A DNA stretch of 64,000 nucleotides from the IMG/VR virus record IMGVR_UViG_3300037116_000097; one strand, written 5' to 3'. Each line of letters begins with the position of its first letter. The first letter of the stretch is position 1. A program made the translations under genes and the position numbers. Below, one piece after another: positions 24,816 to 57,175 of this stretch. A model generated the notes under the pieces. That model did no database searches, had not been told where the DNA came from, and was given only the letters and a program-made list of their open reading frames with translations. Source of the DNA: a virus.

Positions 24816-25388
24816 ATGAACCTTTCAACCATCGTGATCCCGGAGGACGAGGCCCGCGCACGGCTGGCCGAGTACGAGGCCGCGGTCCGCGAGGAACGCA
24901 ACGCCCAGGACGAGGCGCTGGCCATGGGCTACCGGGCCGCGGTGCGCGGCCTGCCGATCATCAGGCTGTCCGAGACGGTCGCCGCCGGCGGCTTCTTTGA
25001 CGACGGCCTGCCGAGGATCGCGGTCGTGCGCGCCGGCGAGACCGAATGCTACGTGCGGTGGGACGGCAGCGCCCTGATGTACAACGACGGGGTGTCCCAG
25101 AACCGGGGGGCGCTGGTCGGCAAGTGGACAGTGCGCGTGCCCATGGCCGCCGCGAAGCCCGCGAAGGTTACGTGGAAGGGCGGCAGCACGATCGTTCCCA
25201 GCATCCCGCCGCGCCACCGGCCGAAGCCCCGGCGGCTTAAGCACTGCCACATCCTGTGGGAAGTCGAGTCGTGGACTCCCGTCCCGCCGCACGACCCGGC
25301 CCTGATCCGGCATATCCGGGGCGACCTTTGGGCCGTGCTGGCCGTGTGGGACCTCAGCGAGCTTGAGCGCGCCGTACTGGCGATGTGA
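24816..25388 (+). CDS. hypothetical protein (190 aa)
   Basis: RBS AGGGAGGAG 7 nt upstream of ATG 24816; track ORF starts earlier at 24675. Confidence 0.55.
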   Translation: MNLSTIVIPEDEARARLAEYEAAVREERNAQDEALAMGYRAAVRGLPIIRLSETVAAGGFFDDGLPRIAVVRAGETECYVRWDGSALMYNDGVSQNRGALVGKWTVRVPMAAAKPAKVTWKGGSTIVPSIPPRHRPKPRRLKHCHILWEVESWTPVPPHDPALIRHIRGDLWAVLAVWDLSELERAVLAM

Positions 25389-25633
25389 CGGTGAACTCCA
25401 GATCCAAGCCGGACTTGGAGATCACTGGTAGTTCGCCGCGCAAGGACTGGCGCACGAAGGAAACCCGCCAGCGGACCCACCTGGTAGGCGTCCGCCTCAG
25501 CCCTGCCGAGTCGGCCCTACTCCGGGCTGAGGCAAAGCGGACAGGACTGACGATGGCCACGGTGCTGCGAGAGGCGTTCCTGGCCAGCGTGAAAGCGGGT
25601 ATAACGCCCGGCCCGCCGCGCTCTGACCGGTAG
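25385..25633 (+). CDS. ribbon-helix-helix (MobC-like) protein
   Basis: THLVGVRLSPAESALLRAEAKRTGLTMATVLREAFL fits RHH. Confidence 0.5.
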   Translation: MTVNSRSKPDLEITGSSPRKDWRTKETRQRTHLVGVRLSPAESALLRAEAKRTGLTMATVLREAFLASVKAGITPGPPRSDR

Positions 25634-25720
25634 TGGGTCAGTGAAGCGCGAACCTCTGGCAGTTGCCGTATGAGCGGCAGCCAGGAATCTCCGTCGTTTA
25701 CGGCGAGAGGATGTCAATTC

Positions 25721-25888
25721 ATGGCAGGCTGCAAGAGCCTGTCCACCAGCCAGCTCCGGGAGCATGAGGCATCGGGAGCATGCCGGGAATGCAGCGAGCG
25801 GGCACGAGGGATCGCCGCGGAGGCTGCCGCAGCCGAGCCCGGACGCGCGCTCCTGGCCATCCTGGACGGGACAGAGAGGGAGCGATGA
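25721..25888 (+). CDS. small Cys-containing protein (55 aa), start uncertain
   Basis: GAGAGGA RBS before ATG 25721; track ORF 25670-25888. Confidence 0.35.
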   Translation: MAGCKSLSTSQLREHEASGACRECSERARGIAAEAAAAEPGRALLAILDGTERER

Positions 25889-45623: not shown

Positions 45624-46028
45624 CTAAACCGCCGCTCGCAGCGCGGCGCCGAAGCCCTCGGCCGCCGCTTCCGTCAGCGTCCCGTCACCTGCCAGCTTGC
45701 TCAGTGTCGGCTGGAGGTAGGGACGGGGAGGCAGGGCGTGACCAGTGCTGTGATGCCAGATCCCGGGCGGCTGCTGCCAGTGCATCATCGGGTGACCCGG
45801 CATCCACCCGCCCAGTTCCTGTATCCGCCCGTACCGGGTCGTGGGACCAGACCGGGAACGCCACGTCTCCGGCGCTATCTCGATCGCCGCGTCATTCAGC
45901 ATCGACCCCGCCAGCGCCCCGGAGATCGCCGCGGGCGGCGTCTCAGGCTGCGAGGGGGTCTGCGTCGAGAAAGCGTGACTGCGGGCCAGCAGGACGCTCT
46001 GGACCGCCGGCTTGAAGACATCCGCCAT
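45624..46028 (-). CDS. HK97 gp10-like tail component (tentative)
   Basis: GRIQELGG..., ALPPRPYLQPTL resembles the ..A.PFLRPA.. motif; unusual position between GT and tape measure. Confidence 0.4.
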   Translation of the reverse strand: MADVFKPAVQSVLLARSHAFSTQTPSQPETPPAAISGALAGSMLNDAAIEIAPETWRSRSGPTTRYGRIQELGGWMPGHPMMHWQQPPGIWHHSTGHALPPRPYLQPTLSKLAGDGTLTEAAAEGFGAALRAAV

Positions 46029-46133
46029 CGCATTTGCCGCAGCTTCCGCGCCGGGATTCGCGGCACCCTCAAGCCTGCCGATCGCCGCGACGTGCTCCGC
46101 GAAGGTGGCTATGCGCTCACCGCCTCACGCTGC

Positions 46134-46708
46134 TTAGTGCTTGTTCCCCGGCCGGTCAGGGTCCTGCATCGCGCTCAGGCACTCCCACAAAGTGGGCAGA
46201 TATCTCCAGTGACGCAAGGGAATCGACCGGATCACGTCAGGAGTCCAGTTCTGGTTCCTCGCGTACAGGGCGATGCACCGCACGTCCCAGGAGTCCAGGT
46301 CGGACGGCAGCGGCCCCTCCTTGCCCTGCAGGAGCGCTAGGAGGCGGTATCTGTCTCGCCAGCGCTCAGGTCGTTTGGGTCGTTCGCCAGCTCCTCCATG
46401 TGCGGCCTGATCGCGGCCCGGAGCGGGCGCAGCTGCGACAGTTTCAGCGCCCTGATGTTCAGCACGTTGACGGGCTGCGGCAGGGACCAGGACGTGATGA
46501 CGCGGGCCAGCATCGCGTACTCCATCAGCGTCGTCCCGGCCGCCGTGGCGGTGAAGCCCTCGGACTTCTCCCCGCCGTCATCCTCCCCGGCGCCCCTGAT
46601 CTTGACCGCTGACCGGACCTTGACCTCGTCCTCGCCGGTGAGGCTGTCCGGATCGCGGACCTCTGCCCAGTTCTCGCCGTCCAATGGCACTCGTGTGGTC
46701 ACATGCAT
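46134..46708 (-). CDS. tail assembly chaperone G-T fusion via -1 frameshift
   Basis: -1 frame open from slippery site to TAA 46136-46134, GC3-rich (..LLALLQGKEGPLPSDLDSWDVRCIALYARNQNW..). Confidence 0.65.
46337..46708 (-). CDS. tail assembly chaperone (G-like)
   Basis: 123 aa, acidic, directly after major tail gene; GGGAG RBS. Confidence 0.7.
   Translation of the reverse strand: MHVTTRVPLDGENWAEVRDPDSLTGEDEVKVRSAVKIRGAGEDDGGEKSEGFTATAAGTTLMEYAMLARVITSWSLPQPVNVLNIRALKLSQLRPLRAAIRPHMEELANDPNDLSAGETDTAS
46373..46379 (-). promoter_or_regulatory. -1 programmed ribosomal frameshift slippery heptamer C_CCA_AAC
   Basis: X_XXY_YYZ in the G frame (ga C CCA AAC), 12 codons before G stop. Confidence 0.65.
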
Positions 46709-46728
46709 CTCCCGTTGTCCGGTTTGTG

Positions 46729-48003
46729 TCAGTATGTCGGCGTGTTATTGGTGAGAGTGAGCTGAAGTGGGCTGTATCCAGCACTATTGCCCGTATTTGT
46801 GGTGTTCCCCACCAGCTCCATCCCCGCGTTGTAGCCGAGCAAAGCCTTACTTGGCTCGATGACGGCGGTTTCCCACGCGGTGACGGCGCTGTCGATCTGG
46901 AGCTTGATCAGGTTCGTGCTGGCCAGCCCGTTGGTGGCAATCGCCTGCGTCTGCGGCTGGGTGTTGTTGAGCAAATTCAGGAGAGGATAGTCGCCGGTCG
47001 TCGCTCCGCTGGCGGCCTGCTGCGCTGCGGGTGCAAAGTTATATTTTGCGGTACTTGTGCATTTTCCGCGCCCGAAAACGTACGGATTCTGACTTCCGTC
47101 CGCCGTCCAGTAGGGCTCGACCACGCGGGTAATGACGTACTCCCAGGTGCCGACGTTATACACCGGCGAGCCGGCCACGGTGCCGCCGATGCCGACCTGG
47201 GAGTTCCACGCGGGCTGCTGAGCCACGGTGGACACGTTCACCGTGGGGATAGTGCCGGGGATGGCGTTCGCGAACCCCATCGCCTTGCCGGACCACATGA
47301 GGATTCCGTCGGCGTTGCCGGTGATGGTCACCTCGGAAAAACACGAATACGGGTACCAGCGGGCAAGAACCGTGTTGATATAGTCATTATCGGTCAGAGT
47401 GTGCGTGGGCGGCTGGCAGTTCCCGGTGCCGTTCAGCAGCGAGAACACATGCGTGTACGGCCCGGTGACCTGCGTGACCGGCGCGGCGTTGGCGTGCACC
47501 AGCCGCGTCGGCGTGGTGGTGGCGATGGTCGCCGAGGTCGCCGTGGCCCCGGTGATCTGCACGATCTCGGACGTGGTGGTCGTCCCGATCTGCACGTACC
47601 CGGCACCGAACCCGCTGCCCGCCGTGATCGTGATCGCGCCCGTCGTCCCCACCGGGTAGCCGGGCGCGTTGTTGACCGTGGTCGTGATCGTCCCGGACTG
47701 GACGCCCTGCGCGGTGTAGTCGCCTAGGACGTTGAGAAGTGCGTGACCGAATGTGTCCCCGTAGATCGGGGATGCGTCGATCGTGATGTCCGCGACGTAA
47801 ACACCCTGCGTGTAACCATAGTTTCCCGCCATGGAGGAACGCAGGGATTCGTCCAGCAGCCCCGTGACCTTGTTCTCCGGGACGTAGCCCTTGACGGGGA
47901 TGGTGTACGCCGGCGCCACGCCCGTGCCCGGCACGGCTTCCTTGGCGATGGCCAGCGACCGGCGCTCCGCCGGGTAGATGGCGCTGGGAACGGTGAGTGC
48001 CAT
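46729..48003 (-). CDS. major tail protein (424 aa)
   Basis: Position immediately upstream of chaperone pair; beta-rich Thr/Gly/Asn composition. Confidence 0.65.
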   Translation of the reverse strand: MALTVPSAIYPAERRSLAIAKEAVPGTGVAPAYTIPVKGYVPENKVTGLLDESLRSSMAGNYGYTQGVYVADITIDASPIYGDTFGHALLNVLGDYTAQGVQSGTITTTVNNAPGYPVGTTGAITITAGSGFGAGYVQIGTTTTSEIVQITGATATSATIATTTPTRLVHANAAPVTQVTGPYTHVFSLLNGTGNCQPPTHTLTDNDYINTVLARWYPYSCFSEVTITGNADGILMWSGKAMGFANAIPGTIPTVNVSTVAQQPAWNSQVGIGGTVAGSPVYNVGTWEYVITRVVEPYWTADGSQNPYVFGRGKCTSTAKYNFAPAAQQAASGATTGDYPLLNLLNNTQPQTQAIATNGLASTNLIKLQIDSAVTAWETAVIEPSKALLGYNAGMELVGNTTNTGNSAGYSPLQLTLTNNTPTY

Positions 48004-48006
48004 GCC

Positions 48007-48273
48007 TCAGCCCTCCGCCTTCTCTGCGGCACCAGCCGCTGCCGGTGCCGGCGCGGGGACCGCAGCCGGGGTCTTCACGGACGCGGCGGGAGGGGATGCC
48101 GCGGCCTGCCACCACCACGACGGGCCGGGCGGTTCCTCGTAGCCCGCGTTTTCCTCGCCGCCGAAGTCGTAGGACTCGCCGGGGCGCAGCACGAGGGTGC
48201 CGGGCTCCCCGTCGAGCGCCCGCAAGTGCGGAAAAACCTGCTCGGACGGCCCCACGTAGATCTGACTGGCCAT
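48007..48273 (-). CDS. hypothetical protein (88 aa), Pro/Ala-rich C-terminus
   Basis: CCGGAGGTGC-ATG RBS; coupled to major tail gene. Confidence 0.5.
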   Translation of the reverse strand: MASQIYVGPSEQVFPHLRALDGEPGTLVLRPGESYDFGGEENAGYEEPPGPSWWWQAAASPPAASVKTPAAVPAPAPAAAGAAEKAEG

Positions 48274-48332
48274 GCACCTCCGGGTGATGGTTGGTGATGT
48301 GGTACCGTGGCAGCATGGTTGATAGCCACGCG

Positions 48333-48473
48333 ATGACGATCCGGCTGCCAGGGCCGGTCTATGAGGCCCTGCGCCGTGAGGCGTTCGACCGGCGCGTGCC
48401 GATGACCGAGATCATCACCGAAGCGCTCCAGGCGCACATGGATGACTACTTCTCGAAGCATCCGAAGGCGTAG
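48333..48473 (+). CDS. ribbon-helix-helix (CopG-like) protein (46 aa from ATG 48333)
   Basis: MTIRLPGPVYEALRREAFDRRVPMTEIITEALQAHM; track ORF starts at GTG 48291. Confidence 0.5.
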   Translation: MTIRLPGPVYEALRREAFDRRVPMTEIITEALQAHMDDYFSKHPKA

Positions 48474-48478
48474 CGCCC

Positions 48479-49678
48479 ATGTCCCGCTACCGGCTGACTC
48501 CGACGCCTGCGCAGGAAGCCGTGATGCGGGAGCATTGCGCCCATGCGCGGTTCGTTTGGAACCTCGGCCATGAGCAGCGGCTGATGTACCGCGCCGGTCG
48601 CGGTCGCACTCCCAGCTACCTGGAGCAAAGTCGGCAGCTAGCAGAGGCTCGCGCCGCTGAACCGTGGCTTGCGGCCGGGGCGCATGTGGTTCAGCAGCAG
48701 GCACTGAGAGATCTCGATGAGGCTTGGCGGTACTTCTTTTCCGGAAAACACCGCAAGCCGACTTGGCGGAAGGCATTCCGCAAGGAAGGTTTCCGCATTA
48801 CCGGCAAGCTAGGCCGGGACTGGAAGCTTCGGCGCCTGTCAAAGCATGTTGGTGAGGTGTGGATCACCAAGATCGGCTGGGTGCGCTTCCGCTGGTCGCG
48901 CGCCGTGCCGCCGGCTAAATCGTTCCGGGTCACGGTTGATGGCGCTGGGCGTTGGCACATTGGATTCGCCGCGTGGCCCGCCCCGGCAACACCCGGTCCG
49001 GGAATCGGCGAGGTCGTCGGCATTGACCGGGGCATTGCGGTCTCGGCTGCCCTGTCCACTGGCGAGATGCTGCACTGCCCCGGTCTGAGCGAAACTGAGC
49101 GTGCGCGCATCCTGCGGCTGGAACGCAAGTCCGCCCGTCAGCGCATTCGCGGACAGCCCGCATCTAGCCGGCTTGATCGCACCTACCGGGCCGTCGCTAA
49201 GCTGCGAGCGCGCGCGACAGATCGACGCAAAGACTGGGTGGAAAAGGTTTCCACGGACATCGCGCGCAGGTTCGACGTGATCCGGGTAGAAGATCTCAAG
49301 GTCAGGCATTTGACGCGCTCGGCAAGGGGATCCGCCGCTAGGCCAGGGCGTAATGTCCGCCAGAAATCTGTCGTAAACAGGGCCATACTCTCAAGCGGGT
49401 GGGCACCCCTGGTCTGTCGGCTTGAGGACAAGGCACCCGGCCGGGCGCAGAAGATCAACCCGCGCTACACATCCCAGCGGTGCTCGGAGTGCGGGCGCAT
49501 CGCAGCTGAGAACCGCAAGAGCCAAGCGGTTTTCGCCTGCGTGGCCTGCACTTATACCGGCAACGCTGACGTGAACGCGGCCAAGAACATCGCGGCAGGG
49601 CATGCCGTGACTGCGCGGGGAGGTCCCCAGTTGGGGCCGCTGAACCGCGAACCTCAGCTTGCGCTTCTATCTGCGTAG
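48479..49678 (+). CDS. tnpB: TnpB (IS605 OrfB) RNA-guided endonuclease family protein
   Basis: RuvC triad candidates GIDRG, IRVEDL, NADVNAAKNI; zinc finger CSECG...CVAC; typical N-terminus YRLTPT..Q. Confidence 0.85.
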   Translation: MSRYRLTPTPAQEAVMREHCAHARFVWNLGHEQRLMYRAGRGRTPSYLEQSRQLAEARAAEPWLAAGAHVVQQQALRDLDEAWRYFFSGKHRKPTWRKAFRKEGFRITGKLGRDWKLRRLSKHVGEVWITKIGWVRFRWSRAVPPAKSFRVTVDGAGRWHIGFAAWPAPATPGPGIGEVVGIDRGIAVSAALSTGEMLHCPGLSETERARILRLERKSARQRIRGQPASSRLDRTYRAVAKLRARATDRRKDWVEKVSTDIARRFDVIRVEDLKVRHLTRSARGSAARPGRNVRQKSVVNRAILSSGWAPLVCRLEDKAPGRAQKINPRYTSQRCSECGRIAAENRKSQAVFACVACTYTGNADVNAAKNIAAGHAVTARGGPQLGPLNREPQLALLSA

Positions 49679-49739
49679 GCTGGAATCCTCGCCCTTTCGG
49701 ACGGGGAGGATGTCAAGACGGCGTCAACGATGAAGGCGC

Positions 49740-50252
49740 CTAAGCCTGGAAATCCTCAAGGATCCGCGCTGCGATCCGCGCATCATAACGGAGTATGCGC
49801 TGATCAGCGTTCACACCCCTCGGCACGGCTACATCGTAGCTCAGGCGCTCTCCTGTGCCGTAGATCTGGCTGTAGCGGCCCGTCACGGGATCTGAAAGCA
49901 TCACCGGATCCTGGCAACTTCGCAGTACATCCAAGATCGCATCCACGATCACCGGGAACGAGGCATCAGGAGTCGGGTCGCTGTCGTCCTGGAACCAGAC
50001 CGTCCAGATATCTAGCTGGTGCGTCATCGTCTTCCACCCGGACTGCGTAGTGCCCAGGTTGGGCACGGGCGCTCGCGGGAGAGACTGACGGCCTTCCGAC
50101 CCCGTGGACGGCCAGACGTAGACGTGGGGGTCGAGCTGGTCTTCTTCCGGGTTCGGCGGGGTGACGAAGACCTCGAGCGGCGTGGCGTTGCCGGGGATCG
50201 GCATCCCGTTCAGGATGCTGTAGACCCAGGTCTGGGCTGTGAGGATGGGCAC
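49740..50252 (-). CDS. head-tail joining / tail completion protein (170 aa), tentative
   Basis: Position between adaptor and tail genes; GTG start. Confidence 0.45.
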   Translation of the reverse strand: MPILTAQTWVYSILNGMPIPGNATPLEVFVTPPNPEEDQLDPHVYVWPSTGSEGRQSLPRAPVPNLGTTQSGWKTMTHQLDIWTVWFQDDSDPTPDASFPVIVDAILDVLRSCQDPVMLSDPVTGRYSQIYGTGERLSYDVAVPRGVNADQRILRYDARIAARILEDFQA

Positions 50253-50286
50253 GCATCACCGCCCGCATCCGGGGTAAGCTTGACCT

Positions 50287-50360
50287 TGCGGGGTGGCGCA
50301 GTTCGGTAGCGCGGCGGGCTCATAACCCGCAGGTCGCGGGTTCAAATCCCGTCTCCGCAT
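50287..50360 (+). tRNA. tRNA with CAU anticodon (Met; initiator-like stem, or Ile2)
   Basis: Manual cloverleaf: acceptor TGCGGGG/CTCCGCA, D GCGC/GCGC, anticodon stem GCGGG/CCCGC, loop CTCATAA, T stem GCGGG/CCCGT, loop TTCAAAT; no encoded CCA. Confidence 0.85.
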
Positions 50361-50377
50361 CTAAAGGGCGAGCCGCC

Positions 50378-51338
50378 TTACCAGATTCTCTTGAAGTCGC
50401 GCACCATCAGCTTCGCGGCCTTCATGAGCGCGTCGGCTCCGCTGCCCGTACTGACACCCGCTGGCGAGATGGTCTGCGGCGTCGTGGCCGTAGCGCCCCT
50501 CGTAAGGGCCTGCGCGACACCGAAAAGTATCGATGCCCACTGCAGTTGTCCCGGAAGTGCACTAAATATGATCCCGGTCGAGTGCGGCCAGGTGAGCGCC
50601 GTGGCGAGCGTCAGCGTCCCCGGTCCCTGCGCGGCTGATGCCGTGAGAACCGTGGCGGTCTCCTGGTAGCCCCCGCCTTCGGGGTCGTAGATGGTCCCTG
50701 ACGCCCCCTGGGCGGCTCCTGCGGGCGGTCCCCACCCGGTGCAGTCGTCAACTGCGATCGTGGTTGCGCCGGCAATGGAAGCAGCAGTGAGGGAGCAGTG
50801 GGGCCAGCCGTTGACGTACTGGGTCTGGAGGAAGTAGCCGCCGCGCCCGTTCCAGGTGCTCACGTAGCCGCCGCCGAGGGTGACCGACTGCCCGAACTCG
50901 CCCGCGTCGGCGGGCAGTCCCGTGGCATACGCACTCAATGGAGGCGAATCGACCACGTACATATTGGCCGGGATCGTCGTCCACTGAAGCGGCGGGATGG
51001 CGGGAGCGCACTGGCCGCCGAGGATGGACAGGATCGGGCTGCGCGCCAGGATGAGCGTGGCGTTCCCGATGCTGTCGATCTGGAAGCGGGTAGTTCCGGG
51101 GCCCTTGAGCTGCTCGGTCGTGATCGTGGCGCGGAGGATCTGGCCGGCCGCCGTATCGGTAAATCCCGTAGCTCGCTGGCAGATATTAAACTGTTCAGCT
51201 AGCTGTTGTGCCGATGTTGACTGTCTTGTCGGAATTGTGCTCCAGGAGACCGGGTAAAATGCCTGTCGCGGCAGAAGTCAGGATAGCTGGGTTGATATAG
51301 GGCGTTGGCGTCTGATACGGGGTGGGCATTTTCGACAT
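50378..51338 (-). CDS. head-to-tail adaptor protein, reading frame broken (+1) near T4 run 51259-51256
   Basis: Frame A MSKMPTPYQTPTPYINPAILTSAATGI.. stops at 51195; frame B ..VSWSTIPTRQSTSAQQLAEQFNICQRATGF.. has no start until 50962 but is coding-like. Confidence 0.55.
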
Positions 51339-51392
51339 CACCTCCCCGCGAGCATCCGGGCGCTCTCGGCGCGATGGTGGCAGGCTGCGGGG

Positions 51393-51587
51393 ATGAGCTG
51401 CTGTGATGACGAGGAAGATCCGCCGAGCGTCCGCCACCTGATCCACGACATGTCCTCGTACTGGATCGACCAGGGCAAGCCGGTGTACGTCAGCGTCGGC
51501 AGTGATGTGTTCCTGGTGACCGGCATCACGAGCACGGCGCGCGGGCAGTCGTTCAATCTGCGGCCTGTCGATTGGCCGACGGGATGA
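51393..51587 (+). CDS. hypothetical protein (64 aa)
   Basis: GC3-rich, divergent from adaptor gene. Confidence 0.4.
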   Translation: MSCCDDEEDPPSVRHLIHDMSSYWIDQGKPVYVSVGSDVFLVTGITSTARGQSFNLRPVDWPTG

Positions 51588-51793
51588 GCGAGGACACCCG
51601 AGCGCAGGACTCAGCCGGGCACATGGACGACCCGTCGTGGGGAGTCTGCGCCCGCTGCATGGAGCTAGGCCCGTGGATGCCGTTCTTCCAGGGCTACCTG
51701 TGCCCCTCGTGCGTGCGGTGGTATCAGGAGGAGCTAGAGGCGGGGCGGTGGCCGTTCACCGCTGCCTTCGACGGCGCTAGTCCCGCCCTATGA
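51584..51793 (+). CDS. small zinc-binding-like protein (69 aa)
   Basis: ATGA overlap at 51584; CARC ... CPSC. Confidence 0.4.
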   Translation: MSEDTRAQDSAGHMDDPSWGVCARCMELGPWMPFFQGYLCPSCVRWYQEELEAGRWPFTAAFDGASPAL

Positions 51794-51977
51794 CCGTCAG
51801 GTCGAAGGACTTAGCGCAGACGTAGCAGACATGCTCCCGGCCCACGGTGTCCCACCTGACATGCCTTTCGCAGACCGGCTCGCCGCATCTCGCGCACTGG
51901 GCTACGGGCTGGGCGGCGCGGGCCTGACTTCCCCGCCGCCGCCCTCCGCAACGTCCGCACAGTCCGCCCCTCGCCAT
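51777..51977 (-). CDS. small zinc-ribbon protein (66 aa)
   Basis: AGGAG RBS; CGRCG, CARCGEPVC, CYVC. Confidence 0.5.
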   Translation of the reverse strand: MARGGLCGRCGGRRRGSQARAAQPVAQCARCGEPVCERHVRWDTVGREHVCYVCAKSFDLTVIGRD

Positions 51978-51983
51978 GCGCTC

Positions 51984-52226
51984 CTAGTAACCGCTCGCGA
52001 CGCCGAGATGGCCCGTCGTGTGCGGGACGAAGCCCGGCATGCCCAGGGTGCGGCAGTAGAAGCCGCTCGGGAGCGCGACGGTGATGGCCGCCAGCGGCGA
52101 ATGGGCGTCGCAGGACAGGTGGTCGGTGCCGAAGCTGCTGCCCCAGGCGACGGTGGCCGGCTCCTGGCAGGTCTCGCAATTCAGCTCAGGGATGCTGTAC
52201 GGCACATGGCTGATGACGTGAGCCAT
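51984..52226 (-). CDS. hypothetical protein (80 aa)
   Basis: TGATG coupling to upstream gene. Confidence 0.45.
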   Translation of the reverse strand: MAHVISHVPYSIPELNCETCQEPATVAWGSSFGTDHLSCDAHSPLAAITVALPSGFYCRTLGMPGFVPHTTGHLGVASGY

Positions 52227-52867
52227 CAGGCCGCCACCTTCCCGGCAGCCCGGATACGGCCGATCAGGGCAGCCCTGTCACCGTGCGCCGGCAGTCCCAG
52301 CCGCTTCGCCTCGGCGCGCAGGTCGTCAGCACGCCAGTCCTTGAGCGGCTTCGGGCGTCCTGCTGCCTTCGGGGCCGCTGCGGGCCGCTGCGGGCCGCTC
52401 AGCGCCGCCTGGGAGGCATCAGGGACAACGGCACCGGGGAGGGAGCCCATCGGGGAGCCGCACTCCCCGCAGAACTTCACGCCCGCCGCGTTCGGGTGGC
52501 CCGCGGTGCACTGGACTGCGCCTGCCTGCGCTAGCCCCAGGAGGGGCGCCAGGGCTGCGGCGAGGGCCGGGCCGAGTGCGCCCGCCAGGTTGCCGGGGAG
52601 ATTCCCGAGGGCCTTCTCCTGTTCGGCGGAGGCGTTCTTCTCGCGGCGCTCGCGCTCGATCTTCTCGTCGTAAGTCTCGGGGATCTCCTGGATGGTGCCG
52701 GACCAGCCGTCATCGTGACGCAGGTGGTCCTCGCACTGAGGGCAGGTCAGTGCCCAGAGCTTGACGGGCGCGCCGTTCTCAACGGGTCGGACATGGCTGG
52801 AGCCGCATCCTCCGTGAGCCCGGCTCAGGCCGACGTACACCCTGTCAGCCGCAGCGTAAACGGTCAT
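52226..52867 (-). CDS. zinc-ribbon + SAP-like domain protein (213 aa)
   Basis: CPQCEDH, CTAGH..FCGECGSPM, C-terminal LRAEAKRLGLPAHGDRAALIGRI. Confidence 0.5.
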   Translation of the reverse strand: MTVYAAADRVYVGLSRAHGGCGSSHVRPVENGAPVKLWALTCPQCEDHLRHDDGWSGTIQEIPETYDEKIERERREKNASAEQEKALGNLPGNLAGALGPALAAALAPLLGLAQAGAVQCTAGHPNAAGVKFCGECGSPMGSLPGAVVPDASQAALSGPQRPAAAPKAAGRPKPLKDWRADDLRAEAKRLGLPAHGDRAALIGRIRAAGKVAA

Positions 52868-52905
52868 GGGAACGGGATTCCTTTCGGTGGTGGGACGATG
52901 GACGG

Positions 52906-53160
52906 ATGAGCGAGCATCGTGAACTGGTCGGGCGCCTGTACAAGCCAGACCTGAGTTTGAGAATCCCCAACGATGACCCGCGCTGTCACTGCGCGCTAGA
53001 GCCGGATCTTCCCGTCGCTGAGGGCGTAACGGTCATCGGCATCGCGGAGGGGCGCGTTGCGCTGCACGCCGACTGCCCGCATCACGGGCCTGTTGCCCGG
53101 CGGATGAACCAGTCGGTGCTGCGCGGCGGTTTCAGCGTCGGCCCTACTCAGGCTCCGTAG
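52906..53160 (+). CDS. hypothetical protein (84 aa)
   Basis: Moderately GC3-rich + strand ORF, tail-to-tail 17-nt overlap with next gene. Confidence 0.35.
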   Translation: MSEHRELVGRLYKPDLSLRIPNDDPRCHCALEPDLPVAEGVTVIGIAEGRVALHADCPHHGPVARRMNQSVLRGGFSVGPTQAP

Positions 53161-53422
53161 GCGAGCCGCACTTAGGGCAGTCGAGACTCCAGACCTGCCA
53201 GCGCCGCCCCCCGCAGGGCACGCACACCCGCCCCTTCCTGGTGCCGATCACGGTCCCCGGATCAACGGTGATCATCCCGATGGACGTGTGAGCGGACTGC
53301 CGGAGCCTCGCGGCGTGCTCGTCGGAGACCTCAACGGAGGTACCGGGCTTCGCGTCGTAGCGGGAGCCATCTGCGCTCGTAAATCCGCCGCAACCAGGCG
53401 GAAGCTGTATCTTCTTGGACAT
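53144..53422 (-). CDS. small zinc-ribbon protein (92 aa)
   Basis: GAGAGGGG RBS before ATG 53422; CVPCGG...CPKCG; longer track ORF 53144-53761 is antisense read-through. Confidence 0.5.
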   Translation of the reverse strand: MSKKIQLPPGCGGFTSADGSRYDAKPGTSVEVSDEHAARLRQSAHTSIGMITVDPGTVIGTRKGRVCVPCGGRRWQVWSLDCPKCGSPTEPE

Positions 53423-53433
53423 CGCCGCCCCTC

Positions 53434-54111
53434 TCAGGTGATGTAGTTGGTGCGGCCGGTGCGCTTGTGGTCCCAGTAGTGGACTGCCACGGCGCCGGGC
53501 GGGGGAACCCACGAGGGTGTCAGCAGCCCCAGCTCGGTGGAGTGCACCGGGTTGAACGTCTCGCGGGGGAAGGCGTGCAGGACACCCGGACGGGCTGCCA
53601 TCGCCTCGCCCATCAGCGCGTTCCCGGTCGCGTCGGGGATGATGCCGTTGCCCTCGGCCTTCATCCGCCAGTACCGCGCTGGCAGGAGGCCGGTGACCAC
53701 GGACTCCCAGAACGGGTGCCCGGCCGGCCCGCCGAACGCGGCGTTGACGACCCCGCGCCACTCCTCATCGCTCTCCCACGACGCCCACGGCTGCCGGGTA
53801 AGGACATCGCCGAGGAGGGACAGCGGGCGCAGGGGCCGGATGTCGCAGTTGACGTAGGTGCCGCCGAACCTGTTCACCAGGTCGTAGGCGATCACGTCCG
53901 CGAGCGCGACGGCCATCTCGATCGAGCCGCCCTTGGTGCAGCGGCCCCGGATGTCCTCCAGCACGTCCTCGTTAGCGAGATCCTCGGGCAGGTTGTGCCA
54001 GCCCCACTCGATGACCTTCGCGCCGGGGTTGAGTTCCTGCCATTTCTTCCCGAAGCCGCGGAACGGCGCCGGCATGGGCCGGGGGCCGAGCCACATGCGG
54101 TGAATCAGCAC
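53434..54111 (-). CDS. glycosyltransferase, GT32/OCH1-like (DXD sugar transferase)
   Basis: IHRMWLGP..P, LADVIAYDLVNRFGGTYVNCDI pattern. Confidence 0.65.
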   Translation of the reverse strand: MLIHRMWLGPRPMPAPFRGFGKKWQELNPGAKVIEWGWHNLPEDLANEDVLEDIRGRCTKGGSIEMAVALADVIAYDLVNRFGGTYVNCDIRPLRPLSLLGDVLTRQPWASWESDEEWRGVVNAAFGGPAGHPFWESVVTGLLPARYWRMKAEGNGIIPDATGNALMGEAMAARPGVLHAFPRETFNPVHSTELGLLTPSWVPPPGAVAVHYWDHKRTGRTNYIT

Positions 54112-54992
54112 CCGGCCAGCTCCCGGTAGTGCGCGACCGTCCGGGCGAGCCCGTCCTCGAGCGGGACCGCTCCCGGCAGCCCGGCTTTCGCGAGCACGAC
54201 GCTGCCGGGTGTCTCGCCGGGCCGCATCGGCAGGAAATCCACCGTGGCCGTGATCCCCGTCTGCCGCTGCACCTCAGCGCGGGTCAGCCACGCTACCTGC
54301 GCAACCGTCGTCGCCCGCCCGGTGCCGGCTTCCAGCGGCTCATCCGGCACATCCCCGGCGGCCAGGCCCTCCAGCGCGGTCACGAGCGCCCCGGAGACAT
54401 CGGTCACGTAGACCATGTCCATCACCTGGGAGCCGTCGCCGTAGACCTCTACAGGCTCGCCGTGCAGTGCCCGCATGATGAACGACGGGATGATCTTCCG
54501 CACCCTCGACGTGCCGTAAGGCGCGGCGACCGACTGGCCCGGCCCGTAGGCGTTGAAGGCCCGCACCGACGCGACCGGCAGGCCCCGGTACCGCCGGTAC
54601 ATCCCCGCGAACCGCTCCGCCGCGTTCTTCGTCACCGAGTAGGTGGAGAACTCGAACCAGTTCCCGACCGCGATGTTCACCAGCGGCACCCCGTACTGGG
54701 CGCATGCTTCCAGCACGTTCAGGGCGCCGAGGATGTTGACCTCCGCCGCCGGCCTCGGGTTCGTGATCGTCTCCGCCGTGCCGAGGACGCCGGCAAGGTG
54801 GATGACGCCCTCGCAGTGCGCGACCGCCTCCGTGACCGCCGTCGCGTCCCGGACATCGCCGAGGATCACGTCATGCGCGCAGTCGCGGTCCCGCAGCCGG
54901 TCAAGGACCAGCGGGGAATGACCTGCTGCTATCAGGGCGTCACACGTATTCCGGCCGATGAATCCCGCGCCCCCGCTGACCATTACCCTCAT
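54105..54992 (-). CDS. NAD-dependent sugar epimerase/dehydratase (SDR)
   Basis: MRVMVSGGAGFIGRN Rossmann motif; YSVTK catalytic YxxxK. Confidence 0.85.
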   Translation of the reverse strand: MRVMVSGGAGFIGRNTCDALIAAGHSPLVLDRLRDRDCAHDVILGDVRDATAVTEAVAHCEGVIHLAGVLGTAETITNPRPAAEVNILGALNVLEACAQYGVPLVNIAVGNWFEFSTYSVTKNAAERFAGMYRRYRGLPVASVRAFNAYGPGQSVAAPYGTSRVRKIIPSFIMRALHGEPVEVYGDGSQVMDMVYVTDVSGALVTALEGLAAGDVPDEPLEAGTGRATTVAQVAWLTRAEVQRQTGITATVDFLPMRPGETPGSVVLAKAGLPGAVPLEDGLARTVAHYRELAGC

Positions 54993-56116
54993 GCGGTGAT
55001 CCTCGCTTCCAGCTCGGCGAGAGCCGGGGCCCAGTGCTCCTTCAGCACCCGGTCAGCGTCGTACTGCGCGGCGAAGGGGACGCACTTAGCCCGCCTGGCC
55101 TCGTAGACCTTCCCCCGCAGGTACGCCTGCTCATACGCCCGGTGGATGGCGGCGATCGACGGGCGGGTCCAGCAGGCGTTGTGGACCGGGTTCCAGAACG
55201 GCTCCCCGGCGACTTTCCACCCGCCGCCGCACATCTCCGCCATCGCCCCGGCATCCGTGACCACAACCGGAATCCCGCAGCTCTGAGCCTCTAGCGCAGT
55301 GATCCCGAAGCCCTCGCCGAAACTGGCCTGCGAGTACAGGTCAAGTGCCCCGTACCAGTTCGCCACCTGCTGGCTGGTGATCATCCCGGTCAGGTACTCG
55401 TACTGCCCGCAGAACTTCACCGCGTCCTGGATGCCCAGGTGGTGCGTCACCTTCGACAAGTCCACTGAGCCCACCTCGTGGACCAGCCCGTGGATCAGCA
55501 GCAGCGTGTCCGGGTGCGCCGCGTGCAGCCTCGCGAACGCCGCCAGCTGCTCGTACATGCCTTTACGGAAGCTGTCCTTGTTGTTCGCGTTGATGCCGAT
55601 CGTGAACTTCCCGGCGGCCCCCAGGATCTCCCTGGTCTCCTCCCGGATCGGCGACGGCGAGAACAGGGCCGTATCGATCCCGTGGGGCACGTAGAGCGGC
55701 GAGTATCCCGCTGCCCTGAGCCGTGCCTCCCCGGCGCGTGACATCGCGATCGGGATGGCCCCCGAGGCGTCCAGGAACGTCCTGTCGGCGCTCGACAGCG
55801 GCTCGGAGTCCGAGGGCATCCAGCAGGCCAGGGGCTGGCCTTTCAGCGGCGCCGGGTCCAGCACCCACACGTCCATCAGGGTGATGATCAGGTCCGCCCC
55901 GTGCCGTGCCCGGTGCTGCGGCAGGATCCCGGCGCCGTACGGGTCGCCGGGGAACGCGCCGGGCAGGACCGTGATCCCGTTCCACGCCAGCGGCGACCCG
56001 CCGAGGCCGTGGAACGCGGAGATGACTACCTCATGGCCGAGCTGCGGCAGGCGGGTCGCAAGCATGGCGGTTTGCGTACCATATCCTGAGCGTTCCCATG
56101 GAGCATTTGATCCCAA
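54989..56116 (-). CDS. GT-B glycosyltransferase family 1 (GT4-like)
   Basis: C-terminal GEGFGITALEAQSCGIPVVVTD motif; N-terminal start (TTG 56116) uncertain. Confidence 0.8.
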   Translation of the reverse strand: MGSNAPWERSGYGTQTAMLATRLPQLGHEVVISAFHGLGGSPLAWNGITVLPGAFPGDPYGAGILPQHRARHGADLIITLMDVWVLDPAPLKGQPLACWMPSDSEPLSSADRTFLDASGAIPIAMSRAGEARLRAAGYSPLYVPHGIDTALFSPSPIREETREILGAAGKFTIGINANNKDSFRKGMYEQLAAFARLHAAHPDTLLLIHGLVHEVGSVDLSKVTHHLGIQDAVKFCGQYEYLTGMITSQQVANWYGALDLYSQASFGEGFGITALEAQSCGIPVVVTDAGAMAEMCGGGWKVAGEPFWNPVHNACWTRPSIAAIHRAYEQAYLRGKVYEARRAKCVPFAAQYDADRVLKEHWAPALAELEARITA

Positions 56117-56147
56117 AATGACCTTTATCGGGCCACCCCCGCCCGGG

Positions 56148-56618
56148 TCATGCCGCGACCACGAAATACTGCACGTTGACGGTCTGGGTCGGCGCGACCG
56201 ACCCCGAGTTGCTGACCGTGAACCCCGTAGTCGCCAGCGCGGTTGCCTCCACCGTGGTCACGCTCGCCACGGATCCGGTCGTGTTGGTGGCCGTCGCGAA
56301 CACCGCCACCGGGGCAGCCGGCAGCGCAGTCCCGAACGCCACGGTGGCGATCGTCCCCGCCGCGACCCCCGAGGAGTCGACCGTGAGCAGGAAGTTCCCG
56401 CCCATGTCATGGCCCTTCGGCACCGACGCCACGCAGTGCGTGACCCCCGTGATCGTCGGCAGCGCCCCCCCGCCGTTGAGCGCGACGGCAGTAAGGCCGC
56501 CCGCCCCGTGGACGTTCAGGGAGCCGCCCTGCTCGCTGATGATCACGGCACCCGAGAACGTCACGTTCGCGGTTTCGCTCTTGGTCCCCGGTGCGAGGTT
56601 CTTTCCGGCTAGCGACAT
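56148..56618 (-). CDS. hypothetical structural protein (156 aa)
   Basis: GGAG RBS; beta-rich Thr/Ala/Val/Gly sequence downstream of capsid gene. Confidence 0.5.
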   Translation of the reverse strand: MSLAGKNLAPGTKSETANVTFSGAVIISEQGGSLNVHGAGGLTAVALNGGGALPTITGVTHCVASVPKGHDMGGNFLLTVDSSGVAAGTIATVAFGTALPAAPVAVFATATNTTGSVASVTTVEATALATTGFTVSNSGSVAPTQTVNVQYFVVAA

Positions 56619-56723
56619 GCATCTCCAATGCTTCCGGGACTCACCCGGCAGGGAAAAGGCGAACAGGGATGAGGGGCCGCGGCCCCGGCGGGAGCTGAGT
56701 ACCGCCGGGAACCGCGAGCCCGG

Positions 56724-57008
56724 TCAGACGACTGACTCCACGGTCGCCAGCCCGCCCAGGGCCTGCGACGTCTTGGCCGTGTTGCAGATCGCGTAGATGC
56801 TGATCTCCTGCCCCTGCAGCGTCACCTGGTCGCCCGCCGCCACCAGCAGCCCCGTGGCGTAGGTGACCGAGGACGTCCCCAGGGCGAACGTGTTAGGTCC
56901 CTGGTTGATGACGGTGGGGTTGACCTGCAGCCCCCCCGAGGTGGCCGTGTAGACGAGCGTGGCGACGGTGCTGACGGTGGTTGCGGATCCGGGCCCGAAG
57001 AGAGCCAT
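56724..57008 (-). CDS. hypothetical structural protein (94 aa), decoration candidate
   Basis: AGGAGG RBS before ATG 57008; track ORF extends to 57119. Confidence 0.5.
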   Translation of the reverse strand: MALFGPGSATTVSTVATLVYTATSGGLQVNPTVINQGPNTFALGTSSVTYATGLLVAAGDQVTLQGQEISIYAICNTAKTSQALGGLATVESVV

Positions 57009-57175
57009 GCGCCTCCTGTTAGTGGTGACTGGCGGCATGGCCGCCCTGTTGCGGGTAGTGCGGGAAGTTGGGGAGCGATGCGCGGGCCGGGCGCCCTTGC
57101 TGAGCACCCGGCCCGGCACCGCTGTGAGACTCTGGCTACCCTGCCTGTCCTAATCGGACATAACAGGATGAATGC

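What the first reader, a model, noticed from the sequence alone, without database searches (positions are those of the whole stretch)
48274..49739. Intact TnpB with an RHH partner and no TnpA, inserted antisense in the structural operon
Position: the whole 1.47-kb gap between two minus-strand structural genes (48007-48273 and 49740-50252) is occupied by a plus-strand pair. The pair is a 46-60 aa CopG-like RHH ORF (48291/48333-48473) followed 5 nt later by a 399-aa TnpB.

TnpB integrity: the RuvC triad candidates (GIDRG, RVEDL, NADVNAAKN) and the CxxC...CxxC finger are all present.

Missing transposase: there is no Y1 (TnpA) or serine transposase anywhere in the window.

Possible right end: downstream of tnpB lies a hairpin (ATCCTC..GAGGAT, 49685-49711). 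It is followed by TCAA twice (49713-49716 and 49724-49727), which resembles IS608-type right ends. The omega-RNA guide would begin at such an end.

Possible target motif: upstream, TGAT occurs twice (near 48285-48300). This could be a TAM/target motif.

Interpretation: an RHH-TnpB pair in a phage could be either a self-maintaining homing-type element or a domesticated, RHH-regulated RNA-guided nuclease used against competing phages. The RHH-TnpB gene pairing is not an arrangement I know to be characterised.
Basis: partly seen in the sequence, partly recalled or inferred. Interest (0 to 1): 0.7.

Follow-up and report, generated by a model that had tools for sequence, protein, structure and literature searches.

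The report
Stranded TnpB nuclease beside phage repressor
A phage genome carries an intact RNA-guided TnpB nuclease with its guide-RNA scaffold but no left transposon end, joined behind a small phage repressor-type gene; this is a variant of an already described arrangement, not a new system.

Summary
48479-49678 (+) encodes an intact 399-aa TnpB. It has the RuvC residues D183/E271/D364 and a CxxC..CxxC finger, preceded by a small ribbon-helix-helix (RHH) ORF.

The right end is real. Homology to about 60 relatives stops exactly after GGAGGATGTCAA at 49716, and a three-stem guide-RNA (omega-RNA) scaffold shows covariation. The guide would start at 49717.

- No left-end hairpin exists anywhere in the window, so the unit cannot be excised in the canonical way.
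- The likely target motif in relatives is TCAY, not TGAT.
- The RHH is a phage gene module. An 81%-identical copy with the same promoter-like block sits in another context without TnpB.

RHH-TnpB pairing is already published ("Arc" repressor in IS605 elements, 2026 preprint; archaeal RHH/MazE-TnpB, 2023). Six of 225 related TnpB loci carry Arc genes.

A related phage has the same backbone but different cargo in this slot.

A second, TnpB-less 89-nt scaffold lies at 25629-25717, just after another RHH gene. Its flank matches related phages next to TCAC, so it is a relic of an older insertion.

Most likely this is an immobilised IS1341-type TnpB/omega-RNA unit transcribed from an RHH-controlled phage promoter. 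Any homing or competitor-exclusion role is unproven.

The parts
48007..48273 (-). Conserved 88-aa phage backbone gene. Its start codon and GGAGG ribosome-binding site (the reverse complement of 48274-48284) form the left border of the variable slot.
   Evidence: Homology to the related phage L161 runs up to 48284.
48285..48298 (+). 14-nt junction carrying most of the direct repeat GGTGATG (48283-48289 and 48293-48299, 10-nt spacing). It shows no homology to the related phage or to the RHH module in L254. It may be an RHH operator. It is not a demonstrated target motif.
48299..48314 (+). Promoter-like block GTGGTACCGTGGCAGC. It contains a TGN-extended -10-like TACCGT (48303-48308) 6 nt before the ATG at 48315, the arrangement of a leaderless transcript. 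This reading is inferred.
   Evidence: The block is conserved with the TnpB-less RHH locus L254 (GTGGTACCGTGGGTGCATGGTT). The sigma-70 consensus scan found nothing.
48315..48473 (+). RHH gene of 52 aa from the conserved ATG. In-frame alternative starts are at 48291, 48297 and 48333.
48479..49678 (+). tnpB, 399 aa, with an intact RuvC triad (D183/E271/D364) and zinc finger.
49617..49716 (+). Omega-RNA scaffold / right end. Order: stem-loop 1, conserved linker GAACCGCGAACCTCA, stem-loop 2, GGAAT, terminal hairpin (49685-49711), GATGTCAA. The right end stops at 49716. Conservation to relatives begins further upstream, inside the ORF, at about 49522.
   Evidence: In one search, 85% of cells are paired against 39-53% in slid controls, and 0 of 500 shuffles reach the observed covariation.
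49717..49732 (+). Predicted guide, GACGGCGTCAACGATG. This is the flanking DNA that the omega-RNA would carry.
   Evidence: Its position follows from the right-end boundary. Its 57 exact 16-mer matches in viral contigs extend by at most 2 nt, as expected by chance.
49740..50252 (-). Conserved 170-aa phage backbone gene. Its stop codon is the right border of the variable slot.
25385..25633 (+). Second RHH gene (NikA-like, 82 aa). Compared with relatives, its last codons are replaced where the solo scaffold begins.
   Evidence: PF21983, 28.9 bits against a cutoff of 27.
25629..25717 (+). Solo 89-nt right-end / omega-RNA scaffold with no tnpB. It has the same three-stem architecture with compensatory changes and ends in GATGTCAA.
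   Evidence: nhmmer E = 8e-9. Its boundaries were defined against L341 and L317.
25718..25733 (+). Guide-like flank of the solo scaffold, TTCATGGCAGGCTGCA. The related phage L317 matches 29/29 nt after CCAC. L341-L343 match 15 nt after TCAC.

Best explanation
The locus is the right-hand portion of an IS200/IS605-family, IS1341-type (tnpB-only) element that has become stranded in an actinophage genome.

Shown:
- tnpB is intact and has the canonical catalytic residues.
- The right end and omega-RNA scaffold are intact and end at TCAA (49716).
- The left-end hairpin that all chromosomal relatives carry is absent.
- No Y1 transposase is in the window.
- On its 5' side, tnpB sits 5 nt behind a small RHH gene that also exists, with the same upstream block, without TnpB elsewhere.
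- The whole unit occupies a slot between two conserved phage genes that holds different cargo in a related phage.

Inferred:
- RHH and tnpB are co-transcribed from the RHH gene's own, probably leaderless, promoter.
- The RHH represses that promoter, as the Arc proteins of IS605 elements do. This would keep nuclease and guide RNA low.
- The 3' part of the transcript is processed into an omega-RNA whose guide is about 16 nt, starting at 49717.
- TnpB then cuts DNA that carries a TCAY-type motif followed by that sequence. Such DNA would be alleles of this phage region lacking the insert. The unit would therefore behave like a free-standing homing or exclusion nuclease during co-infection, not like a mobile transposon.

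The TnpB-less scaffold at 25629-25717 is a relic of an earlier insertion of the same kind. That insertion landed 3' of TCAC and was later truncated by deletion.
For: - TnpB identity and catalytic integrity.
- Right-end boundary is identical in about 60 relatives. nhmmer E = 8e-49.
- Scaffold covariation. Folds of both window copies and of relatives share the same architecture.
- No left end: an nhmmer left-end profile built from 28 relatives has no hit in the whole window at E <= 10. The same profile finds the left ends of L003, L085, L090 and L091.
- No TnpA.
- The nearest TnpB clade is TnpA-less.
- The slot is variable. In the related phage L161, homology stops at 48284 and resumes at the 170-aa gene, with 375 nt of other ORFs between.
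- The RHH is an independent phage module. L254 has an 81%-identical RHH and the conserved upstream block, followed by an unrelated ORF.
- RHH GC3 is 0.85, like the phage genes (0.78-0.89). TnpB GC3 is 0.72.
- RHH fold.
- Precedent for RHH repression of tnpB promoters: Moon et al. 2026.
- Arc genes occur in 6 of 225 related TnpB loci.
- Relic reading of the second scaffold. L341-L343 carry ...GTCAC|TTCATGGCAGGCTGC with about 1.1 kb of phage genes in place of the 89-nt scaffold.
- TCAY abuts the left end in 26 of 28 relatives.
Against: - No expression data exist for the operon or for any omega-RNA.
- The promoter is inferred only from a conserved TACCGT-N6-ATG block. The sigma-70 consensus scan found nothing.
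- No natural target (TCAY + GACGGCGTCAACGATG) was found. The viral-contig hits are chance 16-mers. The one related phage has a diverged sequence at that position.
- The target motif comes from relatives only 55-65% identical and may differ for this protein.
- Keeping the tnpB ATG while losing the whole left end needs a precise deletion or recombination that I cannot reconstruct.
- Both scaffold-bearing units abut the 3' end of an RHH gene. Independent accidental deletions do not explain that coincidence.
- Within the phage lineage all copies are about 100% identical, so selection on tnpB cannot be measured.
Confidence: 0.6

Rival explanations
1. The RHH is transposon cargo, an Arc-type repressor. 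RHH-TnpB-right end is then one mobile (or recently mobile) element whose left end is short or unrecognisable.
For: - Arc (Pfam PF03869) genes lie inside related elements, between the left-end hairpin and tnpB, in L003, L085, L090, L091 and probably L238. In the viral contig L001 the Arc gene is in the sense direction and overlaps the tnpB start. No left-end hairpin was found in the 369 nt available there.
- hhalign places the window RHH in register with that Arc group (probability 65%, E = 6e-5).
- Arc + tnpB-only elements are reported by Moon et al..
- A 67%-identical TnpB (P0009) also has a 67-aa ORF 4 nt upstream, but no DNA is available for it.
Against: - The RHH with its own upstream block occurs without TnpB in L254.
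- jackhmmer from the window RHH finds no counterpart upstream of 225 related TnpBs.
- Identity to the Arc group is 18%.
- RHH codon usage matches the phage, not tnpB.
- There is no left-end hairpin or TCAY junction left of the RHH.
- Only one copy exists, and only in this phage lineage.
Confidence: 0.17
2. TnpB has been domesticated by the phage as a multi-guide weapon. The cis omega-RNA and the orphan scaffold at 25629-25717 both load TnpB and direct cleavage of related co-infecting phages (exclusion or homing), under RHH control.
For: - The orphan scaffold keeps all three stems through compensatory changes, plus the conserved linker and GATGTCAA end.
- It lies in the 3' UTR position of an RHH gene, so it could be transcribed.
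- Its flank matches related phages: 29/29 nt in L317, and 15 nt after a TCAC motif in L341-L343.
- tnpB is intact although immobile.
- Protein homing endonucleases do exactly this in phages (review PMC13565253).
Against: - Any relic right end would have a flank matching the uninterrupted allele, so the match is not evidence of function.
- The two scaffolds are diverged (29 bits against 160 bits to the family profile). Cross-loading is unknown.
- L317 has CCAC rather than TCAY, and L341 has mismatches from guide position 16.
- No target was found for the first guide.
- There are no expression data.
Confidence: 0.13
3. The unit is inert debris. A transposon landed in a dispensable phage slot, lost its left end, and has simply not yet decayed. 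The RHH adjacency has no functional meaning.
For: - The left end is lost and no TnpA is present.
- A second, further-decayed copy lies in the same genome.
- The slot tolerates arbitrary cargo.
- TnpB GC3 is lower than that of the phage genes, which would fit a recent arrival.
- TnpB genes are common passengers in phages: 459 phage records have tblastn hits.
Against: - The 399-codon ORF, all catalytic residues, the zinc finger and the whole scaffold are intact.
- The 5-nt spacing behind a promoter-bearing gene gives it a route to expression.
- The nearest relative is only 68% identical, so the gene has been separate from every sampled relative for some time without acquiring a stop codon.
Confidence: 0.1

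Closest known systems
IS1341-type (tnpB-only) members of the IS200/IS605 family, i.e. OMEGA systems such as ISDra2 TnpB
   Same: - Same domain set and the same D-E-D triad, aligned to ISDra2 D191/E278/D361.
- The omega-RNA scaffold overlaps the 3' end of the gene.
- The right end has a subterminal hairpin and terminates in TCAA.
- The guide is the flanking DNA.
   Different: - There is no left-end hairpin or TAM junction.
- It is a single copy in a phage.
- It is fused behind a foreign promoter-bearing RHH gene.
Arc-containing IS605-family elements (Moon, Zedaveinyte, Wiegand, Sternberg; bioRxiv 2026, 10.64898/2026.09.24.754181)
   Same: A small RHH protein is encoded next to tnpB. The published function, repression of the tnpB promoter, is the most economical reading here. 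Arc + tnpB-only elements are among those they tested.
   Different: - The window RHH is below the Pfam Arc threshold and only remotely similar to the Arc genes of sister elements (18% identity).
- It is co-directional and upstream of tnpB rather than divergent.
- It lies outside any recognisable transposon boundary.
- A close homolog exists without TnpB.
Archaeal RHH/MazE-TnpB pairs proposed as toxin-antitoxin modules (Altae-Tran et al. 2023, PMC10691335)
   Same: [quoted passage not shown]
   Different: Those TnpBs are archaeal and have a rearranged catalytic site. This one is actinobacterial/phage with the canonical triad. No evidence here points to RHH-TnpB protein contact.
Free-standing homing endonucleases of phages (T4 Seg/Mob; 'intronless homing', localized marker exclusion)
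   Same: A nuclease gene is wedged between conserved phage genes in a slot that differs between related phages. Its expected target is the allele lacking it (review PMC13565253).
   Different: Recognition would be RNA-guided. Neither cleavage nor any biased inheritance has been shown.

Membership tests
TnpB (RNA-guided endonuclease, IS200/IS605 family) | Profile match above the curated cutoff, with the HTH / OrfB_IS605 / zinc-ribbon domain set | tested here: met
   NCBIfam NF040570 scores 192 bits against a cutoff of 100. Pfam PF12323, PF01385 and PF07282 are all above their cutoffs.
TnpB (RNA-guided endonuclease, IS200/IS605 family) | Canonical RuvC D-E-D triad and C4 zinc finger | tested here: met
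   D183, E271 and D364 align with ISDra2 D191, E278 and D361. CSEC starts at residue 335 and CVAC at 354.
TnpB (RNA-guided endonuclease, IS200/IS605 family) | Structured omega-RNA scaffold spanning the 3' end of tnpB and the right end | tested here: met
   nhmmer E = 8e-49. The three-stem structure shows covariation: 85% of cells paired, and 57 double-change cells against 23 in shuffles, with 0 of 500 shuffles reaching that value. Whether the RNA is actually produced cannot be tested here.
IS200/IS605 transposon (mobile element) | Right end with a subterminal hairpin and a conserved cleavage tetranucleotide | tested here: met
   Hairpin at 49685-49711 and TCAA at 49713-49716. Homology to about 60 relatives ends exactly there.
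IS200/IS605 transposon (mobile element) | Left end with a subterminal hairpin abutting the target motif (TAM) | tested here: not met
   The left-end profile has no hit in the 64-kb window, although it detects the left ends of sister elements. No TCAY junction lies at 48284/48285.
IS200/IS605 transposon (mobile element) | Y1 (HUH) TnpA in cis, or evidence of recent mobility (multiple near-identical copies) | tested here: not met
   tblastn with the phage PIS136 TnpA gives a best E of 0.57 in the window. Identical copies occur only at this same phage locus. A TnpA acting in trans from a host cannot be tested here.
Arc-containing IS605 elements | RHH-fold protein encoded adjacent to tnpB | tested here: met
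   5-nt spacing. RHH fold: the model has pLDDT 87 and the Foldseek matches include Arc, CopG, RHH-type antitoxins and NikA.
Arc-containing IS605 elements | The arc gene lies within the transposon boundaries | tested here: not met
   There is no left end. The RHH plus its upstream block occurs without TnpB in L254.
Arc-containing IS605 elements | Membership of the Arc sequence family (Pfam PF03869 or the transposon-associated Arc clade) | tested here: inconclusive
   There is no PF03869 hit, only RHH_1 at E = 0.027. hhalign to the Arc genes of sister elements gives probability 65% and 18% identity. Those sister Arcs do pass PF03869.
Arc-containing IS605 elements | Sequence-specific binding to, and repression of, the promoter driving tnpB | not testable with these tools
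   Only candidate sites can be named: the GGTGATG repeat at 10-nt spacing and the conserved TACCGT block.
RHH/MazE-TnpB (archaeal, TA-like) | Rearranged RuvC catalytic site; archaeal distribution | tested here: not met
   The triad is in the canonical positions. Relatives are Actinomycetota and their phages.
TldR / nuclease-dead exapted TnpB | Loss of catalytic residues | tested here: not met
   All three catalytic residues are present.

The most novel reading that the evidence does not exclude
An actinophage keeps an immobilised TnpB as an RNA-guided homing or exclusion nuclease with two guide RNAs: its own 3' omega-RNA, and an orphan scaffold 23 kb away in the 3' UTR of a second RHH gene. 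Each scaffold-bearing unit would be transcribed from an RHH-gene promoter. The nuclease would cut the corresponding alleles of related co-infecting phages. This would be a proto-CRISPR-like, multi-guide use of TnpB by a virus.
Probability: 0.1. Interest if true: 0.7.

Novelty: new member of a known kind. Interest (0 to 1): 0.3.

Why it matters
As it stands, the locus adds one more phage-borne TnpB and one more RHH-TnpB pairing to arrangements that are already described. That is useful mainly as a correction.

Two details are worth keeping.
1. It is a natural case of an intact TnpB/omega-RNA unit that has lost its left end and is driven by a borrowed, RHH-associated promoter. This is the kind of intermediate expected on the path from transposon passenger to host-owned (here phage-owned) nuclease.
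2. The same genome holds a TnpB-less scaffold whose flank matches sister phages next to a TCAC motif. That gives a concrete, testable pair (phage plus sister allele) for asking whether TnpB mediates inter-phage homing or exclusion the way protein homing endonucleases do.

Tried and rejected
- Megablast of 46000-52000 against 50,697 phage records gave no match, so annotated relatives could not be used.
- PHROG and Pfam searches on the flanking 'structural' proteins gave no hits. The capsid/structural label therefore stays unverified.
- tblastn of the window RHH against 160 TnpB loci gave only chance hits away from tnpB.
- jackhmmer from the window RHH over the six-frame upstream regions of 225 loci found only itself.
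- The first tblastx of the closest viral TnpB loci against the window was swamped by high-GC noise. After a bit-score filter no shared flanks remained, so those phages are unrelated.
- I considered that the CATGCACC... similarity between L001 and the window marked a shared left end. I rejected this because the same bases are phage backbone shared with L161.
- I considered that the C-terminus of the 82-aa RHH2 (ASVKAG...) derived from a TnpB tail. I rejected this because the TnpB-less homolog in L341 has the same residues.
- Exact 16-mer scans of viral contigs for both guides gave numbers of hits expected by chance. The one exception was the related phage L317 for guide 2.
- A MAFFT alignment of 57 right ends was too poorly aligned for RNAalifold to recover stems 1 and 2. 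A 23-sequence alignment with a structure derived from individual folds was used instead.
- Rfam gave only sub-threshold hits: HgcC at E = 0.01 and 0.44, and sot0042 at E = 0.59.
- The context of P0009 (a 67-aa ORF upstream of a 67%-identical TnpB) could not be read because the sample has no DNA file.
- The metagenome, genome and 5.8-billion-protein searches found no TnpB closer than 68% outside this phage. The element's ends could therefore not be defined from near-identical copies.
Full report
**1. What is there**

The 1.47-kb gap between the minus-strand ORFs 48007-48273 (88 aa) and 49740-50252 (170 aa) holds two plus-strand ORFs. One is a short ORF ending at 48473. The other is a 399-aa ORF at 48479-49678.

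The long ORF is a TnpB.
- NCBIfam guided_TnpB scores 192 bits against a cutoff of 100.
- Pfam HTH_OrfB_IS605, OrfB_IS605 and Cas12f1-like_TNB are all above threshold.
- A HMMER alignment to ISDra2 TnpB (PDB 8BF8/8EXA) places GIDRG, RVEDL and NADVNAAKN on D191, E278 and D361. The triad here is D183/E271/D364, and both CxxC pairs are present.

The short ORF has only sub-threshold RHH hits: Pfam RHH_1 E = 0.027 and PHROG Arc-like E = 0.009. Its AlphaFold2 model has pLDDT 87, with an extended N-terminal segment followed by two helices. The top Foldseek PDB matches include Arc, CopG, RHH-type antitoxins and NikA. I accept it as an RHH.

**2. Right end and guide RNA**

I collected 240 related TnpB loci from viral, genome and metagenome collections. 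The best are 57-68% identical. They come from Streptosporangiaceae, Kribbella, Nonomuraea, Frankia and related Actinomycetota, and from several viral contigs.

In about 60 of the closest loci, downstream homology ends at the same point...GGAATCCCCGCC-loop-GGCGGGGAGGA(C/T)GTCAA. The window equivalent ends at 49716. The second TCAA is flank.

A profile of these ends hits 49522-49726 with E = 8e-49.

The region folds into three stem-loops separated by a conserved single-stranded GAACCGCGAACCTCA segment. On a 23-sequence alignment, 85% of cells pair against 39-53% when partners are slid. There are 57 double-change cells against 23 in shuffles, and 0 of 500 shuffles reach that value.

By the established organisation of TnpB systems, the guide is the roughly 16 nt after the right end: 49717 GACGGCGTCAACGATG. 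Rfam gives only sub-threshold hits to HgcC and sot0042. To my knowledge sot0042 was described as a transcript overlapping the 3' end of an IS1341-type transposase gene. I treat this only as a hint.

**3. No left end, and the likely target motif**

Chromosomal relatives carry a left end of about 100 nt between the flank and the tnpB ATG. It has a hairpin resembling the right-end hairpin.

In 28 aligned left ends, unrelated flank sequence gives way to homology at a quartet that is TCAT in 22, TCAC in 4, CCAT in 1 and TCTT in 1. I infer that TCAY is the target motif. It often coincides with the start codon of an opposite-strand gene.

A profile of these left ends has no hit anywhere in the 64-kb window at E <= 10. 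The same profile finds the left ends of sister elements. tblastn with the Y1 TnpA of Saccharomonospora phage PIS136 finds nothing in the window. It does find TnpA next to more distant (about 40%) TnpBs in the locus set.

The unit therefore lacks a defining feature of a mobile IS200/IS605 element. The TGAT repeats at 48285-48298 are not at a transposon boundary.

**4. The phage background**

A 113-kb viral contig (IMGVR_UViG_3300014501_000001; L161, L317) shares the backbone at about 82% nucleotide identity.
- Homology runs to 48284. This includes the start codon and GGAGG ribosome-binding site of the 88-aa gene.
- It resumes at the 170-aa gene.
- Between these points the relative has 375 nt with a 67-aa plus-strand ORF and a 52-aa minus-strand ORF. 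It has no RHH and no TnpB.

The site is thus a variable cargo slot, not an empty site.

The identical RHH-TnpB locus occurs in contigs from three other samples. One of them (L253) is 99-100% identical across 48000-48642 but only 60-80% identical across the adjacent 424-aa gene.

**5. Is the RHH part of the element?**

Evidence that it is not:
- A search of 5.8 billion proteins returned only the phage's own RHH and one homolog, P0002, at 81% identity.
- P0002 lies on a 1-kb phage-like contig (L254). DNA homology to the window spans 48299-48431 and starts at a conserved block, GTGGTACCGTGGnnGCATGGTT. The RHH there is followed by an unrelated overlapping ORF, not by TnpB.
- That block contains TGG-TACCGT followed 6 nt later by ATG (48315). 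This is the layout of an extended -10 element driving a leaderless mRNA in Actinobacteria, which is my inference from known promoter architecture. The sigma-70 consensus scan found nothing.
- RHH GC3 is 0.85, like the phage genes (0.78-0.89). TnpB GC3 is 0.72.

Evidence that RHH genes do recur with this TnpB clade:
- Six of 225 loci carry a Pfam-Arc protein upstream of tnpB. In L003, L085, L090 and L091 it is antisense, between the left-end hairpin and tnpB, and separated from the tnpB ATG by a roughly 28-nt palindromic spacer with a TATAAT-like box. L238 also has an antisense Arc. In L001, a viral contig, it is in the sense direction and overlaps the tnpB start, and no left-end hairpin was found in the 369 nt available.
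- hhalign relates the window RHH to this group only weakly (probability 65%, 18% identity).

I conclude that the window RHH is a phage gene module to which tnpB has become joined. It is functionally analogous to Arc, but it is not demonstrably transposon cargo.

**6. Literature**

The pairing is not uncharacterised.
- Moon et al. (bioRxiv, 28 Sep 2026) show by ChIP-seq, reporter assays and mutagenesis that the IS605-encoded RHH 'Arc' binds and represses the native tnpB promoter. Their set includes elements with arc and tnpB only.
- Altae-Tran et al. 2023 describe archaeal RHH/MazE-TnpB pairs and propose a toxin-antitoxin role.
- TnpB genes are common in phages: 459 phage records give tblastn hits.

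**7. A second, TnpB-less scaffold**

The right-end profile has a second hit at 25631-25725 (E = 8e-9). The 89 nt at 25629-25717 keep the three stems through compensatory changes, the conserved linker and the GATGTCAA end. tblastn finds no TnpB remnant nearby.

This scaffold directly follows an 82-aa NikA-like RHH ORF (PF21983, 28.9 bits against a cutoff of 27). Related phage fragments L341-L343 have the RHH2 homolog, then about 1.1 kb of small genes, then ...GGACCGTCAC|TTCATGGCAGGCTGC. L317 has ...CGCCAC|TTCATGGCAGGCTGCAAGAGCCTGTCCAC, a 29/29 match to the flank after 25717.

The simplest reading is as follows. An element once inserted 3' of TCAC, consistent with the motif inferred above. A later deletion removed its left end, its tnpB and the phage genes back to the end of RHH2. 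The flank match to sister phages is what any such relic would show. It also means that, if the scaffold is transcribed and loaded, it would guide cleavage of those sisters.

Both scaffold-bearing units abut the 3' end of an RHH gene. I cannot explain that coincidence.

**8. Mechanism and verdict**

Most likely (confidence about 0.6), this is an immobilised IS1341-type TnpB/omega-RNA unit. It would be co-transcribed with, and probably repressed by, a phage RHH from that gene's own promoter.

Its nuclease would be programmed against TCAY + GACGGCGTCAACGATG. That makes it a potential homing or exclusion nuclease rather than a transposon.

Expression, RHH binding, the target motif and any target allele are all unproven. 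No target for the first guide was found.

This is a new member of a known kind. Interest is modest.

Noticed in passing
window 25629-25717 (with the RHH ORF at 25385-25633 and the flank from 25718): A TnpB-less 89-nt right-end / omega-RNA scaffold lies directly after a NikA-like RHH gene. Its 3' flank matches related phages: 29/29 nt in L317, and 15 nt after a TCAC motif in L341-L343. It is probably a relic of an older insertion that was truncated by deletion.
   Followed up: yes
window 25670-25888 (+): This 72-aa ORF is chimeric. Its first 16 codons are encoded by the solo scaffold. The rest (FMAGCKSLSTSQL...) is a phage gene whose N-terminus in relatives is VTAAELIESLDRH. The insertion or deletion therefore gave the phage gene a new start.
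   Followed up: partly
window 50287-50361 (+): A tRNA-Met (CAT) gene lies on the plus strand between two minus-strand genes. The related phage L161 has only 6 nt at this position. This makes a second insertion polymorphism about 600 nt from the TnpB slot.
   Followed up: partly
L253 (ENA ERZ27313174 k141_453033) against window 46508-48642: The two are mosaic. They are 99-100% identical at 46508-46607 and 48000-48642 (88-aa gene, RHH, start of TnpB), but only 60-80% identical across the 424-aa capsid-like gene. Possible causes are a swapped gene allele, co-conversion around the nuclease locus, or an assembly chimera.
   Followed up: partly
L081-L131 and other chromosomal TnpB loci, left junctions: The TCAT abutting the left end is very often the reverse complement of the ATGA start of an opposite-strand gene. 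These elements therefore sit immediately upstream of gene starts. The last roughly 15 nt before the tnpB ATG carry a TAGNNT box, as for a leaderless transcript.
   Followed up: partly
L003, L085, L090, L091 (spacer between the antisense arc start and the tnpB start): The roughly 28-nt spacer is palindromic, for example GACACCATAGTAGTGATAGAATGGTGTC. It contains a TATAAT-like box and looks like an Arc operator overlapping the tnpB promoter.
   Followed up: no
L001 5587-5769 (-): The viral contig with the sense-oriented Arc-TnpB pair has a second right-end / TnpB 3' hit on the opposite strand about 4 kb away.
   Followed up: no
window 52226-59135: The region labelled 'structural' also encodes a GT4 glycosyltransferase (54989-56116), an NAD-dependent epimerase (54105-54992), an HNH endonuclease (58398-59135) and a SAP-domain protein (52226-52867).
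   Followed up: no
P0009 context (ENA ERZ1426829, no DNA available): A 67%-identical TnpB has a 67-aa plus-strand ORF ending 4 nt before its start. The same sample also holds a homolog of the second RHH (P0005). This could be another RHH-TnpB pair, but it could not be read.
   Followed up: no
window 49620-49729 and 25646-25730: Both scaffolds give sub-threshold Rfam hits to HgcC (E = 0.01 and 0.44). The first also hits sot0042 (E = 0.59).
   Followed up: partly
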